Shown: positions 55,724 through 64,000 of the stretch, one piece after another
How the letters are laid out: the number at the start of each line of letters is the position of its first letter
Numbering within the stretch: the first letter of the stretch is position 1
Assembly (NCBI RefSeq): GCF_002105155.1
Contig: NW_019028995.1
Span: 310,001 to 374,000, forward strand
DNA: 64,000 nt
Origin: Lobosporangium transversale
Taxonomy: Eukaryota
Reading direction: 5' to 3'
Translations under genes and position numbers: made by a program
The notes under the pieces: generated by a model
The model's input: only the letters and a program-made list of their open reading frames with translations
What the model was told of the DNA's origin: nothing
The model's database searches: none

Positions 55724-57293
55724 CTAGAACTTGAAGACATGGTCATTAGTTAATCCAAGCTCCTTCAAGGCACCATCAACATCACCTTGGGTGAAGTTAG
55801 GGCCTTTAGGTCCACTGACAGACTTCATCATAGCTAATAACAGACATGTCGAAATTAATTAACACGCAAATCCTAGTTTTGCTAACAGTTTAAACAAGGA
55901 AGGATCAAACTTACGTGGTGGTCCACAGACAAACACCTTGGTGTTGCCCTGTCCGATCTCAGGGTTGTACTTCTTGATTAGCTCAGCAGTAACGTATCCA
56001 GTAGGGCCAGTCCATCCCTCTACGGGTTTATCAACGACGTAGGTAACCTTGAAGCGGTCTGGATGGGCCTTAGCAAAGGCATCAATCTCATCCTTGAGAA
56101 TAATGTCTTCTGGAGTGACATTAGCGAAGATAAGGTTAATCTTAGTTTTATCTGCCTTATCTTTGAGGAGTCCACCGATGATCTGAATCATGGGTGTGAT
56201 ACCGGAACCACCAGCGATCAAGGTGACAGTCTCATGCTGGTTAGCTTTGAGAGGATACTTGCTGATAGGACCTAGCGTCGCACGCACAAGTTACGTATAC
56301 ACAAATCTACTCAATATGGCGCCAACATAATAACAAAAAAAAAAGATTCTTAAAAGTAATAATCGATACTGACCCTTGACAGACAGGGTGTCACCGGGTT
56401 TCATGCTATGGATGTGAGATGACATTGGACCTCCTGTTACATGTAGCATTTACGACATGAAGAAATTTTTAGTTTGTGTCATGACAGACAGGTACCAATT
56501 AAGTCAGACTGATATTTTCCGTGAGAAACATTTCTATCAAAAAAACACATACCTTCATAACGCTTGATGACAAAGTCGAATGAACCAGTACGATCAGAAT
56601 CAGAGGTAGGAGTGTAAGGACGAATAATAGGCTTGCCATCTTCTTTGATAAACTTGGTAACAACACAGGATGCTACATCCAAACCCAACTTCTGGTTCTC
56701 CTCCAGCTCAAATGTAAAGCGACTGGTGTTTGGAGTCAACTTTTGCACACTCTTCAACTTGAAGTCAACAAAGGCGTTAGGATCCAAAGCAGAGGAAACA
56801 GGGCCCTTCTTTGTAGCCTCATCTTCTACTGTGGGAGCGGTAGTAGATGCGCCTCCCAACTTGTCACCATAATACATATACGCGGCTACATTGGAAATTA
56901 TGTTAAAAAATCATGATAACAAGTAGAACTAAGATCTTCGCTATTTGTCATCTTGATGAATAGTCATGGTGGGAAGAGAGAGTCATATGGATATAAAAAA
57001 AAGAGAGAAAGAGGAAGGAGACAGACGACCTACCTGCAGCAGCGACACCAAGAGGAAGGCCAACAGTCAGCAACTTGCTGGAACCGCCCGCTGGCTTACT
57101 AGAAGTCGAGTAAGATTGCCTCTACAGGAAAGCATAGCAAAGGATAATTGTTTTAATTGAATCTCTCCAATCATTGTATCTGAATTCCCTTTGAACATTG
57201 GCCATAAGGAAGCTCATATGCAAGCAAATAGAAATATTAACATACTGAAAAGGCACGAATACTAGATTTGAAAGGGCTGATCAATCGGAACAT
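55724..57293 (-). CDS. MCR1: Mitochondrial NADH-cytochrome b5 reductase, multi-exon
   Basis: Motifs IIRPYTPTS (FAD-binding RxY(T/S)), LIAGGSGITPM.Q and VFVCGPP, a C-terminal VFKF*, and a presequence-like first exon MFRLISPFKSSIRAF. Confidence 0.92.
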
Positions 57294-57605
57294 CGTGAAC
57301 GCGAATGCAGAACAGAGTGGAGGAATGAGTCTGAAATAGAAACATTGCAAGGTGCGTGAATTCCAATTAAAAAACCAACTCTCAAATACGCCACATCCAT
57401 TAAATCCCACGCACGCCATGCAAATTTAATATTTCTCTTTTTTCACATATAAAGCATTAATTGCCACTCTTTCGCACTGTACTTTATTTTATTTTTTTAA
57501 TAACAGGGATCTCCAGGGATTAAGAAATACCTATGACTTATTGAGTCATTAAGCGCCTTTCATTATCGAGTATAGACAATATTGTCTGTAGACTTTTTTT
57601 TAATT

Positions 57606-57770
57606 ACAAGGACCCTCAGAGTCATGGGATGATGTTATCTGTTGATCTGTACGGTTTTTAAAGTTAGTCCAGAAATTCAAGGGCAAAAGATTAGGTAGAA
57701 AGGATACAGACGAAAATAAACAGAACTTACAAATTTTTTTGTGGGTGTGCCGGCACCCAAATACTTGTGT
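57606..57770 (-). ncRNA. Candidate Fanzor omegaRNA scaffold / element 3' end
   Basis: Lies directly 3' of the RuvC stop codon. It contains hairpins (TGGGTG..CACCCA at 57742-57759; GACCCTCAGAGTC at 57611-57623) and three blocks conserved in a second copy at 63602-63680. The RNA call is inference only. Confidence 0.4.
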
Positions 57771-60700
57771 CTAGCGTCGTGCGCGCTTTGCACCCGGAGC
57801 AGACGACTCTTCCGAGGGTTTGCACTTTGCAGGTCTCTCTTGCCTCTCAATTTGAGCAAGACCGATTCTTGCGATGTTTTCCGCCCCTACTGCGTCACGG
57901 TCGAAGAATACCTTACATGCGCGGCAATATTTAGAGCAAGGGTACACAGCCTCTAAAAAGCTATCGCAGAGGGGTCGGGGACAGCGGGCGCTGGTGTAAA
58001 ATTCGTGCGCCCCTACAGTGAAGTGTCCTCGTGCTTTGACCTAAGCGTTTCAAATGGCAGTCGTTTATTAGCAAAGGTTCTATGGCTTTCCAGCTTTTTT
58101 TACTTTTTTAAAAAAGTCATACCTGTGTGACAAGGTGTCTCGTTATAGTAGTGTGCTTGCTGGGAACTCCCTTACTACTTTCAAAGGACCCTAAGCCGAC
58201 GACAAGCACTCCTTTTTCCCCGAGCATCTTCAATACTCGCTGCACCGCATAGTCGAACGTAGCTCGTTGAGCCTTTCGTAAGTCCCATTTTTTTTTTTTA
58301 GGTGCCATCTGGACTCGTAGAACTCTTGAAGCACATCCAAATTCTTTGATCCTGTCTGTGTCTGGGATTCTTCGTTCATCCATTGAAAGTACTCGTTGTA
58401 CGCATCCCTTCCAAACACAGGGGATGGCGCTCTCAACCTCAATCATTCCTTTTTCACGCTTCCTTTTGTTCAACAGGTGATTGAAGCGGAGGACGGGGAG
58501 GTACAAGAACCTGCTTCTTACCTTCACCGTTTGCCGCAAGTTAGGGTTGTGAGGGTCCAGCGAGGAAAACGTAAGGGCGTTAACAATACCAGGATCACAT
58601 CCGACGATAGTTGTGGTGTTTGCGGATGGGCATCGCCCTGGCTTGTTGAATGTGAGCTCAACGTTTTCAAGCAGCTTGGAGCTCCTCTTCCAGTTTATGT
58701 TTGCATAGTCTTCATCTGTCAGGTCTTCACCGGCTGCCTTTGAACACGTCGTGTTGAGAAATCCCTGAGAAAACTCCAGTTCTTGGCTGGGGTCTTCTTC
58801 ATCTACGTCAGACTGCTGCTGTCTCTTCGTCTGGGTTGTGTCATAGGCAAGTAGATTCAGAACTAGACCGTTGGTAGAAATCGTTTCTTTGAGTTTGAAC
58901 CGAGTTATATCTTTGTCTTGTGACTGTAGGAATACTTTGTCTCGATATCCATGAACCATGCGATCACCTCCAATGTCACAAAAGAGAGCCTGTATCAAAA
59001 CCCCTTTTGTTCCCTGTACACACTCATACATTGCAGTCTTGGAAGCATTATTGAGAGGCAGAATGCGCTCCAGCAGCTGCTTGGTATCTTCGTTCGCCCA
59101 GAGGACGTCAACTAGGGCGTGTTCAGACAGATACACATACCTGGGTGACCAGGGGGGCGTAGGAAAGTCTGAGTATTTTTTCACTTTTTTGTTCTCCCGC
59201 AAAAAAAACTCAATGTCGCTCATATCTTCGTTTGTTTTCTGGACATCAAACTAGAAAAAAATAAAAGAGTCTGAATATAGAGCATTTGATTGCAGAATAT
59301 GCATGAAAATAACCTACACAAGGTTATACCATTGCGTTCCTGTAGTGCTGCCTTAATGATGTCTGTACTTGGCCCATTAGTAGCTCTGACGCTCTTGGAA
59401 ATGAGATCTTTTTGGGATCAAGCCTTGCACGTCCCCCAATGTGATGTCTATTTCCTTTATTGGGGAAAGTTCAGTGGTGGCCTTGAAATGTTCATAAGCG
59501 AGGATATAGTGGGCGTTTCTACCGCCCTTCCTTGTTTTTCTGCCCTCGCGTAAGCTGAATAGGGGGCCACCTTGGCCACTTAAAAGAAGGGTGGCGAGAC
59601 AGAAGGAATAGTTAGTGCTATCCAAGACCTCGTCCAGTGCCTTTTTCCTCGACCTTGCTACCCCTGGTAGCCGCATGATCCTCTCAATGTCCAAGGCAAT
59701 CGCCGAGTATGCATAGCGGCGTAGTCGGCTGCGGACAGCAACTGCCCCTCGGATCTGGCTTGCAATATTATCCCTTTCATCTGCGTCCAGTCTGCCTTTC
59801 CTTGCCATGGAAGCCTTGAGGGGTCCAATTGTTAAGGCCTTGATAGGATGCTTACTACTGTAGCTGTGATCAACCTTCGTAGCATCCTTCAAGTTCCTAA
59901 TTGGTGCACCTTCTTTTTTTACCCCTGTGGAGCTTCTTGCCTTTGTGCTTCCGCTTTTGTTTTTTCTGTTGCTCTTTTTTGCCTTTTTCCGACGTGGTGG
60001 ATGCCTAAGGCCCGGCCTATCGTGCTGACGGCAGTTACTGATATCAACTGTGCGCTCATTCAATATGCTCGGCTTGTCAGAAAAGATGGGCCGGTACTGG
60101 TTTCTATGTGACCCTTTCGCTATATAGAATGATGGTGCGTCTCTACACTATCCAAGAAAGGGACTAACGATTAGTATTGGGGACGTTTGGTTTCAGACCA
60201 AAACTATAGCTTGAGCTTTCTTACGTTCTGCGGCGCTGCGTTCGCCTTTGCTGAGCCATTCTATGACGAAGTTCCTTTCCTTTGAGTAGACACTGCTTGA
60301 AGTTATCGAACTCATTGTTCGATGGTAACGCTCGGGCCGACGTTTGATGGCCGGAAGTAAAAACACGGAGAGCTACTCTGAAACGGCCTTCTTCAGAGGC
60401 TGCGTTCCTTCCCAACATCTTACTAGCTTCCCTTAGGTAATCTCGAAGCATCTTATTGTAGTTTCTGCTCCACGCAACCTTTTGAATTAATTGAGGATTA
60501 TTAATCGGGCCCAACGTCTCGAGGTTCCTTGAGTAATCATTGCCTGCGATGGCACAGAATAACACCAGATATTCGTGTGATGGCAGGCTTAGTGCTTGGA
60601 TAACGTTATCTACATCGTAAACCCCAAACTTCTGTCTACGGTGTGGAGGGGGTCGCACTAGGATGCAGACTCGTTCGTACGCAAAAAAATCAGAGTCTTG

Positions 60701-61248
60701 GGATATCACGATCCTATCATTCTCCTCATTATGGCACCCTATGCATGGGTCCGCTTCATATGTACACAGACAGACATCGAAGACAGAGCCAAGGCCTATT
60801 GCCAGCTGATCCTTGAGGGTGTGGACTTCTCGAAGACCCTTCTGGATGCGCCTTATGACTTGAGGACGAGTCCATACCCCACTCTGAGAATTTCTCCCGA
60901 AGGCGTTCATATCGTTCTCCAAAGCATCCATATTTTTTTGTCTTATGGCTTGCCGTTCTGTTCTTGCTTTTTCTTTCTCATTACAAGGCCTCCCATCAAT
61001 ATGTATAGTCAGATTGTCCGTTTTAAAAAGATCCTTTATCTCGAGCGTCAGGGACCTTCCTACATCAATGATGGATTTGCTTTTCATCTTTGCATGGACG
61101 TCTCTACGGTGGATGTTGTAATAGAACGTACCGAGGAGATCTACATGAACAGAATGGTCAGGATTTGCCGCCAAGAAAGTGCCCACGTCAGTTTCCGAAG
61201 GTAAACCCCGCGATCCGCAACCAGTTTGAAGAAGAACTTCAGCCCCAT
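57771..61248 (-). CDS. PIN (FEN1/XPG-like) nuclease fused to Fanzor/TnpB-type RuvC endonuclease; 4 exons, about 1080 aa after repairing four homopolymer frameshifts
   Basis: Exons at 61248-60225, 60142-59330, 59250-58123 and 58040-57771 join in phase through GT-AG introns. PIN motifs: MGLKFFF, HVDL, HIDG..CNEK, EAD, SQDSDF, GNDY. RuvC-I is IVGCDPG, RuvC-II is AHEFYTSARC, the Zn finger is CPRPLC...CRAC and RuvC-III is DRDAVGAENI. Confidence 0.8.
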
Positions 61249-63565
61249 GATCAATATCTAAGCGAAGGAGAAAGAAAAAAGGAAAGATGGTGGTGATGAA
61301 AAGAAATGAAAAAGAAAAAAAAAGAGCGACAAAGGTATAAATGGATGAGCTTTTTTATGGTTTAAAGATCCAAAGTGAATAGATAAAGAATATTGAGGAA
61401 AAGATACAGGAACAAGTAGCAGTGGTAAAAGGGATGGGACTTTGGAGCGAGCGAGTGGGAAAGGAGGAAGACAATGATCCCTTTTTATATCCTGGATTGA
61501 TGATGAGTTTTATCATTGTCTCATATAGTTTTGATATCGATCCTTTGCTTCACAGGCCACATCAATTTTTATTCAGTTCCTTTGTTTGGATTGGGGTTTT
61601 GTCCAAGTCAATAGTAGAGATCGACAAATAAATACAAGCTCTCGCATGAATGGCAGATCGGAAACAATAGCACTGAGATACCAAAGTGAGCATTCAAAAA
61701 AATTATCTCCATATACAGCATACAGTGTTGATGTCGATCCTTTGTTATACAATTTTTTTTCAGTTTCTTTTTGCATTGGCCCTTGCTTTGTGAGGAATTT
61801 AATGAATAAAAAAAAAAATTATAGTATTAAACAAGGGTAGTAAATACGTTGACAGATTTGACTCGGTGTGTAGGAACTGGTTTTGAAACAGGTGATTACA
61901 TCCTTGTCAAAGGTAACAACAAGAGAAAAAAAAGTCTTTTTTATCAAAGAATGGGTTCAGATGTCGCTCTTTGCTCCAACAGCCCCAGTACTATTGTGTT
62001 AAAGCAGAGATATTCGTTGGCTCTCAGGTTTCGGCATCAATGGCGGAGATAGGAGTGATGTAGTTGCATGCGCTTATTGCTTGGAGTAAAAGCTATCTAA
62101 GCACCCTTTCTTACTGGACGATGCCTTGTTAATGGTGATATTGCGCAGCGCCTTGTGGATGGAGGGAGAGCAGAAGCGAGAGTGGTGGTTTTTGGCGGTC
62201 GTTTGGTGTGTGTATGTGCGAATTTGATGGTTGATACCAATCGCCAAATTATATGAATATAGAATTACAGAAGCGAGATTAATACCGACGCGTTTGAGTT
62301 TCTTTCCTTGAGATTGTTATAACCATGGGATGATTGCGGAGTGGCCACCAAAATAGTTTGTTTATTTCTTCTGGAGGCTCCATTGGAAAGCGCTTGTGTT
62401 TTGAAGTTGCCTAGAAAACAAAAAAAAAACGCCGCGATGCAAAATGTGTTTCTATGCGTGCAAAAACCAAAGAGATGCTTTAGCTGTTTATTCAATAGCC
62501 TGGTGCATGTTCATGTACACACGACTGATAGTGATTGATTAACAAAAGGAAACTCTCGTCTCATCCCATGCATGTACCGCCAAATATTTTCGAAACAATA
62601 AAAGGCATGTACAGACAACAAAGAAGCACGTCAACTGTTTGATTGCTTGATCAGTATCCTCCAGTTTACTCACGTATAATATTTTTTTCTATTCACTCTT
62701 GGCGTGCTTGTACGTCTATTAAGTTTTCTGTCTGGTCGTATAACACTAGGAACCCCCCACGCCAGAAAAAAAATACTTCCCATGGTTGGTGCCAGGTCTG
62801 AAAACAATAATAATAATGCACATGCCGTGCATGGAAGATAGGGCCTTGACACTATGACCATTGTTATGCAGACTCACCGAAATCAACTTGTGATCACAAC
62901 TGCTACTCATGCTCTGTTGCCAAGGGCTTGAAAAGGGACACAAACCTCTTCTTCCTTGTTCTCATAATCCCTCACATCCTTTCAATACTTTCGCCGTAAA
63001 TGTCCATTACATTTGAATCACACATAGGCACTTCACCATTACATATATCACCTTGGGTATGATACGTTGGTGTGGTTCCCTCCAGTTTCAACAGGCCCAA
63101 CAAACTCTATTAGCAGTGCTTACCAACCCAGATATATCAAAGGAACGCAAGAAGACGAGGAAGCAAACGATGTGAAAAATCAGGTCTCGCCGAGTTGTAC
63201 AGGAAAAGATCAAGTTAGTCAAGCTTCATGGTGCGGTAGAATGAATCAACTCAGATTGCACTGCTTTCAAGTCGAGACTACGGCGGCGAATATTACCATT
63301 GCTATATTACACCAGTCAATAAATAAACGATACAATGGGCTCCCAAGCGGATGCTAGAGTCATGCGAAAGTTTTCATGAGTTTTTTTATTTGCACAAATA
63401 AAGAAGCCAGGATAGTTCCTGGATTTTAAGCCCATTTATAATGGTAAATTTGCCCTTGTTATGGATGAAGGGATAATACTAACGTAGATGGTGGGGATTT
63501 ATGTCTGTTTCGTCCAGCGTTCAGCCGTTCTTTCAGGATCGTCCCGCGCAGCTATCGCTCGACTT

Positions 63566-63598
<33 letters not shown>

Positions 63599-63601
63599 AT
63601 A

Positions 63602-63680
63602 ACAAGGACCCTCAGGGTCATGGGATTTATTTTCTACACTCTATGAACAAAATGCTCCAGAAACTATAGTCAATAAACAG
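63602..63680 (-). repeat. Second copy of the element-end motif
   Basis: ACAAGGACCCTCAGGGTCATGGGAT (63602-63626) is 24/25 identical to 57606-57630. It is followed by the shared blocks TCCAGAAA and AATAAACAG and preceded by poly-T. Confidence 0.8.
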
Positions 63681-63795
63681 CTATTACTGCACAAACGACA
63701 AGAGCCGCTGTATCCATGATTTCATAAACCCTGACCGCCGTGGTTGGTACTCAAAGTCCACCTTTCCGACGTGGCCTGTTGCGCAACGCGACAAA

Positions 63796-63999
63796 TTATC
63801 CGCTATCCATAGTCATCAAAAACTTCATTCCACCTAGCCGCTCCATCACGTCCAGTTTGGTTTTCCCAAGGTAACTGTCCCGGACTCGGTCATCCGCGAT
63901 CTTGTAGATCTCTTTTACATTCAGCTTCTGTCTTTGTCTGAGGGAAGGGACAAGGAAATCATTGCTACTACGTCTGTGCTCCCCAACACAGTTGCGTCC
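63796..63999 (-). CDS. C-terminal end of an unidentified ORF running in from the right edge
   Basis: Open frame GRNCVGEHRRSSNDFLVPSLRQRQKLNVKEIYKIADDRVRDSYLGKTKLDVMERLGGMKFLMTMDSG*. The sequence is GC-richer than its flank; no family was recognised. Confidence 0.4.
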   Translation of the reverse strand, partial: GRNCVGEHRRSSNDFLVPSLRQRQKLNVKEIYKIADDRVRDSYLGKTKLDVMERLGGMKFLMTMDSG

Positions 64000-64000
64000 T

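What the first reader, a model, noticed from the sequence alone, without database searches (positions are those of the whole stretch)
63602..63999. Same 3'-end motif recurs 6 kb away behind an unrelated ORF
Seen: 63602-63626 matches 57606-57630 at 24/25, here with a perfect palindrome GACCCT-C-AGGGTC. The blocks TCCAGAAA (63656-63663) and AATAAACAG (63672-63680) occur in the same order but with different spacers. In both cases a minus-strand ORF stops 165-195 bp before the motif end and a poly-A run follows, yet this ORF end is not RuvC-like. Block-wise conservation with divergent spacers fits a functional RNA or end signal better than a recent duplication. It could be a second guide locus acting in trans, a partner gene of the same element (for example its mobilising enzyme) sharing a terminus, or a tandem element (inference).
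Basis: partly seen in the sequence, partly recalled or inferred. Interest (0 to 1): 0.75.

Follow-up and report, generated by a model that had tools for sequence, protein, structure and literature searches.

The report
Fanzor element bracketed by LINE tails
The repeated motif sits at the poly(A)-tailed end of a LINE retrotransposon fragment, and a second copy closes the far end of a multi-copy, intron-containing Fanzor nuclease element that likely moved as DNA into that tail, though it may instead borrow the tail to spread.

Summary
The 24/25 match is real (37 nt at 92% with the A-runs). The two extra blocks exist but are hardly above chance. The 'unrelated ORF' is the last 67 residues of a LINE ORF2: full-length relatives carry endonuclease, reverse transcriptase and RNase H. 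So the motif plus A30 is read as a LINE tail, not a second guide locus. The other copy (motif plus A8) ends a roughly 6-kb multi-copy unit encoding an XPG/FEN1-like plus Fanzor1 protein; single-copy DNA begins right behind it. The unit keeps three introns in multi-copy DNA and in distant relatives, which argues against spread through spliced RNA. Best reading (0.5): a DNA-mobile Fanzor unit lodged in a LINE tail, with the second tail a local duplication or stub. Open alternatives: the family borrows the tail for reverse transcription (0.22) or uses it as a guide (0.15). Whether other copies end in the tail was not determined. [quoted passage not shown]

The parts
63796..64000 (-). C-terminal 67 codons and TAA stop of a LINE ORF2; runs off the window
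   Evidence: 16 phmmer hits; 40% identity to the last 63 residues of 2027-aa P0091, which has Exo_endo_phos, RVT_1 and RNase_H
63627..63795 (-). LINE 3' UTR, multi-copy; other contigs join it with different upstream sequence at 63784 and diverge at 63738
   Evidence: depth 34-107 times the single-copy level in bin 63779-64000; loose ends, table 7
63598..63626 (-). terminal 29-nt tail motif of the LINE, with the palindrome at 63607-63619
   Evidence: sequence
63568..63597 (-). A30 tail, followed on the minus strand by GGAAGTC
61249..63560 (.). multi-copy 5' part of the Fanzor unit, no ORF over 109 aa; true 5' boundary not determined
   Evidence: depth 4-71 times single-copy; joints link it to the gene in other copies (table 5); ORFs
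57771..61248 (-). XPG/FEN1-like plus Fanzor1 gene; introns 60143-60224, 59251-59329, 58041-58122; this copy differs from many others by small coding indels (61202, 59419, 58420, 58288) and is probably dead as a full-length gene
   Evidence: Cas12f1-like_TNB E 1e-5, XPG_I E 0.04; Rad2 E 0.004; SpuFz top fold hit E 1.2e-6; fused relative P0018; introns; indels table 4
57631..57770 (-). 3' region of the Fanzor unit, where a guide-RNA scaffold would be expected; multi-copy from at least 57634
   Evidence: single-copy contig ends at 57663 in 3 of 3 DNA runs laid (table 8); no fold signal; no Rfam match
57594..57630 (-). second copy of the LINE tail: motif (26 of 29 identical) plus A8, followed by GTC and single-copy DNA
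57491..57518 (-). third, decayed tail-like stub (15 of 20 identical) with its own A-run
   Evidence: the only other hit in a both-strand scan of the window for A-run plus terminal 9-mer (3 hits in all)

Best explanation
The motif lies at the poly(A)-tailed end of a LINE ORF2 fragment and again at the far end of a multi-copy, intron-containing XPG-Fanzor1 unit, which likely spreads as DNA and likely landed in this LINE tail, so that the second tail copy would be local to this site. The preferred version is one event: insertion with a long target duplication covering motif, A-run and the next few bases (both A-runs are followed by AAGTC). A variant of nearly equal weight is a tiny 5'-truncated LINE stub that landed at the unit's end. 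Shown: ORF identity, repeat, multi-copy depth, introns, Fanzor fold. Inferred: that the motif is native to the LINE, DNA-level mobility, and the origin of the second copy. The mobilising enzyme is not identified.
For: LINE identity. Introns are in the amplified DNA: an X4 contig at depth 162.7 (single copy 9.8) spans intron 1, and indels inside that intron have depth 110-190 in X2 (tables 4, 8). No intron-skipping joint from a DNA run is among the 15 of 46 joints shown, while RNA-like X6 joins 59249 to 59330. Introns stand at matching positions in 3 of 3 related loci that cover them (L017-L019), and genomic ORF calls at 29-49% identity break at the same intron (P0056, 58, 59, 60, 68). The single-copy contig runs from the flank through the whole tail to 57663, so sequence shared with other copies first appears at 57634, 3 nt past the end of the repeat (inference from 31-letter contig logic). 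L019, the 1 of 4 related loci that passes the stop codon, shows no motif and no long A-tail in about 590 nt. A decayed third tail 103 nt away suggests that stubs occur here. Precedent: intron-bearing Fanzor1 elements CRe-1/2/3 have duplications of 7-19 and up to 443 bp (PMC3627910 section read); a fungal LINE inserts into poly(A) tracts (PMC1965478 passages).
Against: The 3' ends of other copies were not seen, so the key prediction is untested. The contig break at 57633 could be a private point change (it is a TG, a possible decayed CpG). Bases 57633-57639 are the exact complement of the LINE's last 7 nt (chance about 1e-3 by window frequency, found after the fact), which fits a long-standing shared end better. 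A duplication would not predict A30 upstream against A8 downstream. Bin 57504-57754 is deep (36-48 times single-copy although about a third of it is unique flank). No terminal inverted repeat or transposase was found. AAGTC after both A-runs is equally expected from target-primed insertion into the tail, and GT follows 11 of 98 A-runs by chance.
Confidence: 0.5

Rival explanations
1. The whole Fanzor family ends in a borrowed LINE tail and is copied in trans by the LINE reverse transcriptase, like a giant SINE, using unspliced RNA; this copy inserted into the LINE's own A-tail with a short duplication ending in AAGTC.
For: Tail, A8 and single-copy DNA abut directly. Head-to-tail position behind a LINE A-tail fits A-tract targeting (PMC1965478 passages). 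The 7-nt complement could close an outer stem. The LINE 3' UTR has at least one other upstream partner (loose end at 63784 in 4 of 4 runs). Shared tails are the rule for stringent LINE/SINE pairs, with fungal cases (PMC3747384 passages). L020 holds a relative that appears 5'-truncated.
Against: Three introns are kept in multi-copy DNA and in distant relatives. Intron retention is called highly unusual among retroelements and is described for Penelope-like elements (PMC8557442 passages). Depth does not fall steadily towards the 5' end; 63026-63527 is as deep as the 3' end. L019 has no tail.
Confidence: 0.22
2. The tail is family-wide but works at the DNA level: it is the fixed guide of the Fanzor RNA, the nuclease cuts LINE 3' ends, and repair (perhaps helped by the fused flap-nuclease domain) copies the unit into LINE tails, giving LINE-tail-unit-tail composites.
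For: Explains adjacency, the direct repeat, retained introns and the expansion (41 gene models under one species label). The motif starts 140 nt after the stop, and the LINE has AT-rich bases just upstream of it, as Fanzor1 target motifs are (PMC13565253 passage). Depth is similar on both sides of the A30 (34-52 times single-copy in X2 and X4). 19 of 41 models keep all three RuvC motifs.
Against: The upstream tail remains an intact target, so an active nuclease would cut its own locus (inference). The one annotated LINE-end protein under this species label (P0001) is 67 and 98 accession numbers from the two Fanzor models on a contig of the same length. No guide RNA or activity data. No fold signal.
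Confidence: 0.15
3. One reading: 63602-63796 is a stand-alone ('ghost') Fanzor guide locus acting in trans.
For: Ghost loci exist for SpuFz1 (PMC10432273 passages). RNA-like run X6 has its highest depth within the unit in bin 63528-63778 (contig depth is a poor measure).
Against: The region is the 3' UTR of a LINE ORF2. Homology beyond 29 nt is not significant, whereas the SpuFz1 scaffold is 75 nt.
Confidence: 0.05
4. A generic 3' UTR or terminator motif of ordinary genes.
For: None found.
Against: No copy in the first 57.4 kb of the window, which reads as host genes where examined; both good copies touch multi-copy DNA.
Confidence: 0.03

Closest known systems
APE-type non-LTR retrotransposons with RNase H (LINE ORF2); Zorro3 of Candida albicans for poly(A) targeting (PMC1965478)
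   Same: Relatives have endonuclease, reverse transcriptase, RNase H and a Cys/His knuckle in one ~2000-aa ORF; best PDB hits are R2 and LINE-1 proteins; short UTR and A-tail.
   Different: Clade not determined; only the last 67 residues lie in the window; A-tract targeting is not shown for this family.
Fanzor1 (SpuFz1, PDB 8gkh/9ceu); a protein of this family is listed on the FZ1 branch in the supplement of PMC10432273
   Same: RuvC D-E-D with E just before the zinc finger; SpuFz is the top fold match. Row ORZ22893.1 matches P0061 in length and C-terminal letters.
   Different: N-terminal XPG/FEN1-like domain, three introns, no inverted repeats found, LINE tail at the 3' end.
CRe-1/2/3 (Helitron2-type) and MCi-2 Fanzor1 elements (PMC3627910)
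   Same: Non-autonomous Fanzor1 elements; CRe has introns and variable, sometimes very long duplications; MCi-2 has a 6-kb 3' part and no inverted repeats.
   Different: They share ends with Helitrons or nothing, not with a LINE; no Helitron partner or clear asymmetric repeat was shown here.
Stringent LINE/SINE pairs sharing a 3' tail (PMC3747384)
   Same: Shared 3' terminal sequence plus A-run.
   Different: Only 29 nt shared against about 80-100 in the cited pairs; the passenger is 6 kb, protein-coding and keeps introns.

Membership tests
LINE (APE-type non-LTR retrotransposon), for 63568-64000 | ORF2 with endonuclease and reverse transcriptase | tested here: met
   Met through homology only: P0091 and P0095 have both domains plus RNase H; the window piece matches the P0091 C-terminus at 40%. 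This copy's own domains lie beyond the window.
LINE (APE-type non-LTR retrotransposon), for 63568-64000 | short 3' UTR ending in a poly(A) or repeat tail | tested here: met
   198 nt then A30
LINE (APE-type non-LTR retrotransposon), for 63568-64000 | interspersed multiple copies | tested here: met
   depth 34-107 times single-copy; summed contig depth is not a copy number
LINE (APE-type non-LTR retrotransposon), for 63568-64000 | target-site duplication around the element | not testable with these tools
   5' end is beyond the window; no genome held
Fanzor1 | RuvC D-E-D with the glutamate about six residues before the zinc finger | tested here: met
   GCDPG, HEFYTSARC and DRD in window ORFs; definition from PMC13565253
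Fanzor1 | Fanzor1 fold | tested here: met
   model pLDDT 58.9; ranks 1-4 SpuFz, E 1.2e-6, TM 0.37; modest model
Fanzor1 | structured guide RNA at the 3' end | tested here: inconclusive
   z +0.58, no Rfam hit; one diverged copy, no small-RNA data
Fanzor1 | intact reading frame in this copy | tested here: not met
   coding indels against other copies at 61202, 59419, 58420, 58288 (table 4)
Fanzor1 | RNA-guided DNA cleavage | not testable with these tools
   needs biochemistry
LINE-mobilised passenger (stringent SINE-like) | 3' tail shared with the LINE at this locus | tested here: met
   26 of 29 nt plus A-run
LINE-mobilised passenger (stringent SINE-like) | tail shared by the whole family, with varied flanks | tested here: inconclusive
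   other 3' ends not seen; contig break at 57633 and depth are ambiguous; motif absent from three collections
LINE-mobilised passenger (stringent SINE-like) | loss of introns | tested here: not met
   three introns in the window, in multi-copy contigs and in L017-L019
LINE-mobilised passenger (stringent SINE-like) | short target duplication and 5' truncation | tested here: inconclusive
   AAGTC after both A-runs; no steady depth gradient
Helitron2-type Fanzor element (CRe) | asymmetric terminal repeats and hairpins at both ends | tested here: inconclusive
   a 9-nt inverted match at 63455-63463 seen by eye; terminal alignment at noise level; fold z -0.99
Helitron2-type Fanzor element (CRe) | a Helitron partner sharing the ends | not tested
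   no genome held
Ghost guide-RNA locus | scaffold-length homology to the Fanzor 3' region without a gene | tested here: not met
   29 nt only; the rest is not significant; upstream is LINE ORF2

The most novel reading that the evidence does not exclude
An XPG-Fanzor1 family of about 40 copies parasitises a LINE through its 3' tail: either as an intron-keeping passenger copied by the LINE reverse transcriptase, or with the LINE tail as its fixed guide so that it cuts and colonises LINE ends. Either would be a Fanzor physically dependent on a retrotransposon, which a 2026 review says has no evidence.
Probability: 0.35. Interest if true: 0.82.

Novelty: new variant of a known kind. Interest (0 to 1): 0.52.

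Why it matters
If the second tail is local, this is nested transposition and the residual interest is the XPG/FEN1-Fanzor fusion and its unexplained spread without a known transposase. If the tail is family-wide, it contradicts the view that Fanzors pay off only in excising elements (PMC13565253 section 6.2), and gives a testable case of an RNA-guided nuclease riding on, or aimed at, a retrotransposon. One extraction of all 3' ends from an assembly decides between these.

Tried and rejected
Exact motif scans found 0 stretches in viral, metagenome and prokaryote collections. Fanzor and LINE scans of viral contigs gave no Fanzor relative and 16 loci with weak RNase H-region matches that I did not examine; P0091 against prokaryote genomes gave none. 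The Atlas search of the 67-aa piece was uninformative; for P0028 1-170 the nearest named clusters were Prp8 (0.92) and RVT_1 (0.83), a lead only. The fold of the LINE model matched only RNase H domains in the rows listed. No listed holder was on record as RNA; X6 is a guess. Rejected as chance: the two extra blocks; a duplication-like match around the second tail (22 of 98 controls as good); three ACAGA boxes (picked after the fact); inverted or direct terminal repeats; 8-9-nt flank matches elsewhere in the window. No Fanzor gene model carries LINE ORF2 pieces, and only 2 stored proteins read into the Fanzor 3' region, not as far as the motif. A closer read view of 57540-58200 was not obtained, which leaves the 3' ends of other copies and intronless copies open. 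Earlier-finding look-ups by sequence and place were empty. Literature: 10 searches showed no paper on an XPG-Fanzor fusion or a LINE-tailed Fanzor; 'XPG' had 0 hits in the main texts searched and in two supplements.

Full report
Observation. The 25-mer pair matches at 24 of 25 and the repeat extends to 34 of 37 with the T-runs; nothing else in the window comes within 7 mismatches. On the minus strand each copy is followed by an A-run, A8 at 57594-57601 and A30 at 63568-63597, 169 and 198 nt after a stop codon. The two extra blocks are there. Two such colinear blocks arose in 12 of 1000 shuffles, but whole-region alignment scores beyond the core were matched by 280 and 460 of 1000 shuffles and 713 of about 2000 real window pairs. 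Neither 3' region folds better than shuffles, and Rfam has no match. The solid shared part is therefore 29 nt plus an A-run.

The second ORF. The 67 residues at 63799-63999 found 16 relatives, several from Mortierellaceae fungi by their source labels. Longer relatives carry RNase H. Two cluster members of about 2000 residues, P0091 and P0095, carry endonuclease, reverse transcriptase and RNase H domains above Pfam cut-offs; the best solved relatives of P0091 are R2 and LINE-1 proteins. The window piece aligns to the last 63 residues of P0091 at 40% identity. It is the extreme C-terminus of a LINE ORF2, and a short UTR, hairpin-like motif and A30 are what a LINE end should look like. That the motif is native to the LINE is an inference; DNA of other LINE copies was not obtained.

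The first ORF. The gene at 61248-57771 has three GT-AG introns. Its C-terminal part has the RuvC residues with the glutamate next to the zinc finger, a Cas12f1-like TNB match and SpuFz as best fold match from a modest model. Its N-terminal part resembles XPG/Rad2/FEN1 weakly (Pfam E 0.04; Rad2 E 0.004) and is fused to the RuvC part in P0018. Forty-one gene models with one species' tags belong to the family, 57-100% identical to P0032; 19 of 41 keep all three RuvC motifs. A member appears to be listed on the FZ1 branch in the supplement of PMC10432273, and a Mortierella protein with what I read as the same kind of N-terminus is in the supplement of PMC10711439, unlabelled. So the proteins are catalogued; I found no description of the fusion or of the element. 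The window copy has coding indels against other copies and is probably dead.

Extent. Laying four runs on 56500-64000 shows single-copy depth up to about 57500 and 4 to 129 times that depth in every bin from 57504 to 64000; summed contig depth is not a copy number. Joints in other copies link 59306 to 61854 (X1 only) and 62105 to 63303, so the non-coding stretch belongs with the gene. The layout on the minus strand is LINE end, tail, A30, a unit of about 6 kb, tail, A8, single-copy DNA, with a decayed third tail 103 nt further.

How the unit moves. The amplified DNA contains introns: an X4 contig at about 17 times single-copy depth spans intron 1, and RNA-like X6 shows intron 2 being joined out. 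No DNA joint across an intron is among the 15 of 46 joints shown; 31 were not shown. Introns sit at matching positions in 3 of 3 related loci that cover them (the scan examined 133 pattern hits and confirmed 4 loci). Copying through spliced RNA would strip them (established knowledge), so DNA-level spread is more likely. The single-copy contig runs through the whole second tail to 57663 in 3 of 3 DNA runs, which puts the first sequence shared with other copies at 57634, just past the repeat. That fits a tail that is local to this site, though a private point change would give the same picture. Both A-runs are followed by AAGTC, as a duplication through the tail would leave; target-primed insertion into the A-run would leave it too, and GT follows 11 of 98 A-runs by chance. 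Long duplications around intron-bearing Fanzor1 elements are on record (PMC3627910). I put 0.5 on a DNA-mobile unit lodged in a LINE tail with a local second tail, split almost evenly between one duplication event and a separate stub.

Against this reading. Bases 57633-57639 complement the LINE's last 7 nt (about 1e-3 by window frequency, noticed after the fact), which suggests a shared end of long standing. A30 upstream against A8 downstream is not what a duplication predicts. The bin holding the second tail is deep. No terminal repeat or transposase was found. Above all, the 3' ends of the other copies were not seen. A family-wide tail used for reverse transcription of unspliced RNA keeps 0.22. 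A family-wide tail used as a fixed guide against LINE ends keeps 0.15; it is weakened by self-targeting (inference) and by P0001, the one annotated LINE end under this species label, lying 67 and 98 accession numbers from the two Fanzor models on a contig of the same length (this assumes accessions follow scaffold order).

What is known. Jiang et al. report LINEs near Fanzor1c within 10 kb (PMC10530073). [quoted passage not shown] What I saw of each paper: PMC13565253 abstract, passages and section 6.2; PMC3627910 passages and the Helitron section; passages only of 10.1101/2023.06.13.544871, PMC10530073, 10.1101/2023.08.09.552727, PMC10432273, PMC3747384, PMC8557442, PMC10288648 and PMC1965478; term searches in the supplements of PMC10530073 (0 hits), PMC10432273 (one picture file not searched, first two places per term seen) and PMC10711439. 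Repbase and preprint supplements were not available and may describe this element. Earlier AI notes on other genomes raised the stub variant and are leads only.

Verdict. The arrangement of an XPG-Fanzor1 unit between two LINE tails is unusual and undecided between nested insertion and a real dependence on the LINE. Interest 0.52; new variant of a known kind.

Noticed in passing
window 60224-61248: XPG/FEN1-like domain fused in front of Fanzor1, with acidic motifs (DLLG, IDG, EAD, DSD, GNDY) that look like a full active site by recall of FEN1; fused relatives occur in several Mortierellaceae labels.
   Followed up: partly
window 57491-57518: Decayed third tail-like stub with A-run, 103 nt from the second tail; its differences from the LINE motif are all transitions.
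   Followed up: partly
window 57572-57591: Near-perfect 20-bp palindrome right behind the A8 in the single-copy contig; could be the leftover true end of the unit or chance (fold z -0.42).
   Followed up: partly
window 63784 and 63738: Contigs in 4 of 4 runs share the LINE 3' UTR up to 63784 but continue into other GC-rich sequence; others diverge at 63738. Possible SINE-like partner or sister LINE subfamily (table 7).
   Followed up: no
window 59306-61854: A joint at about six times single-copy depth in X1 only removes the XPG part, with one break inside intron 2: a possible amplified deletion derivative (table 5).
   Followed up: no
window 62766: A loose end in X2 shows an allele here that resembles the tail motif with one extra base; probably chance (table 7).
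   Followed up: no
window 63408-63478: Two small hairpins and a 9-nt inverted match to the motif end at 63455-63463, next to a loose end at 63478 in X6; candidate other terminus.
   Followed up: partly
L020 9905-10759: A Fanzor relative that lacks its 5' part lies directly behind unrelated host-like genes.
   Followed up: partly
window 55859-57250: Single-copy, spliced, well-covered host gene next to the unit; its motifs suggest an NADH-cytochrome b5 reductase (name from recall, not tested).
   Followed up: no
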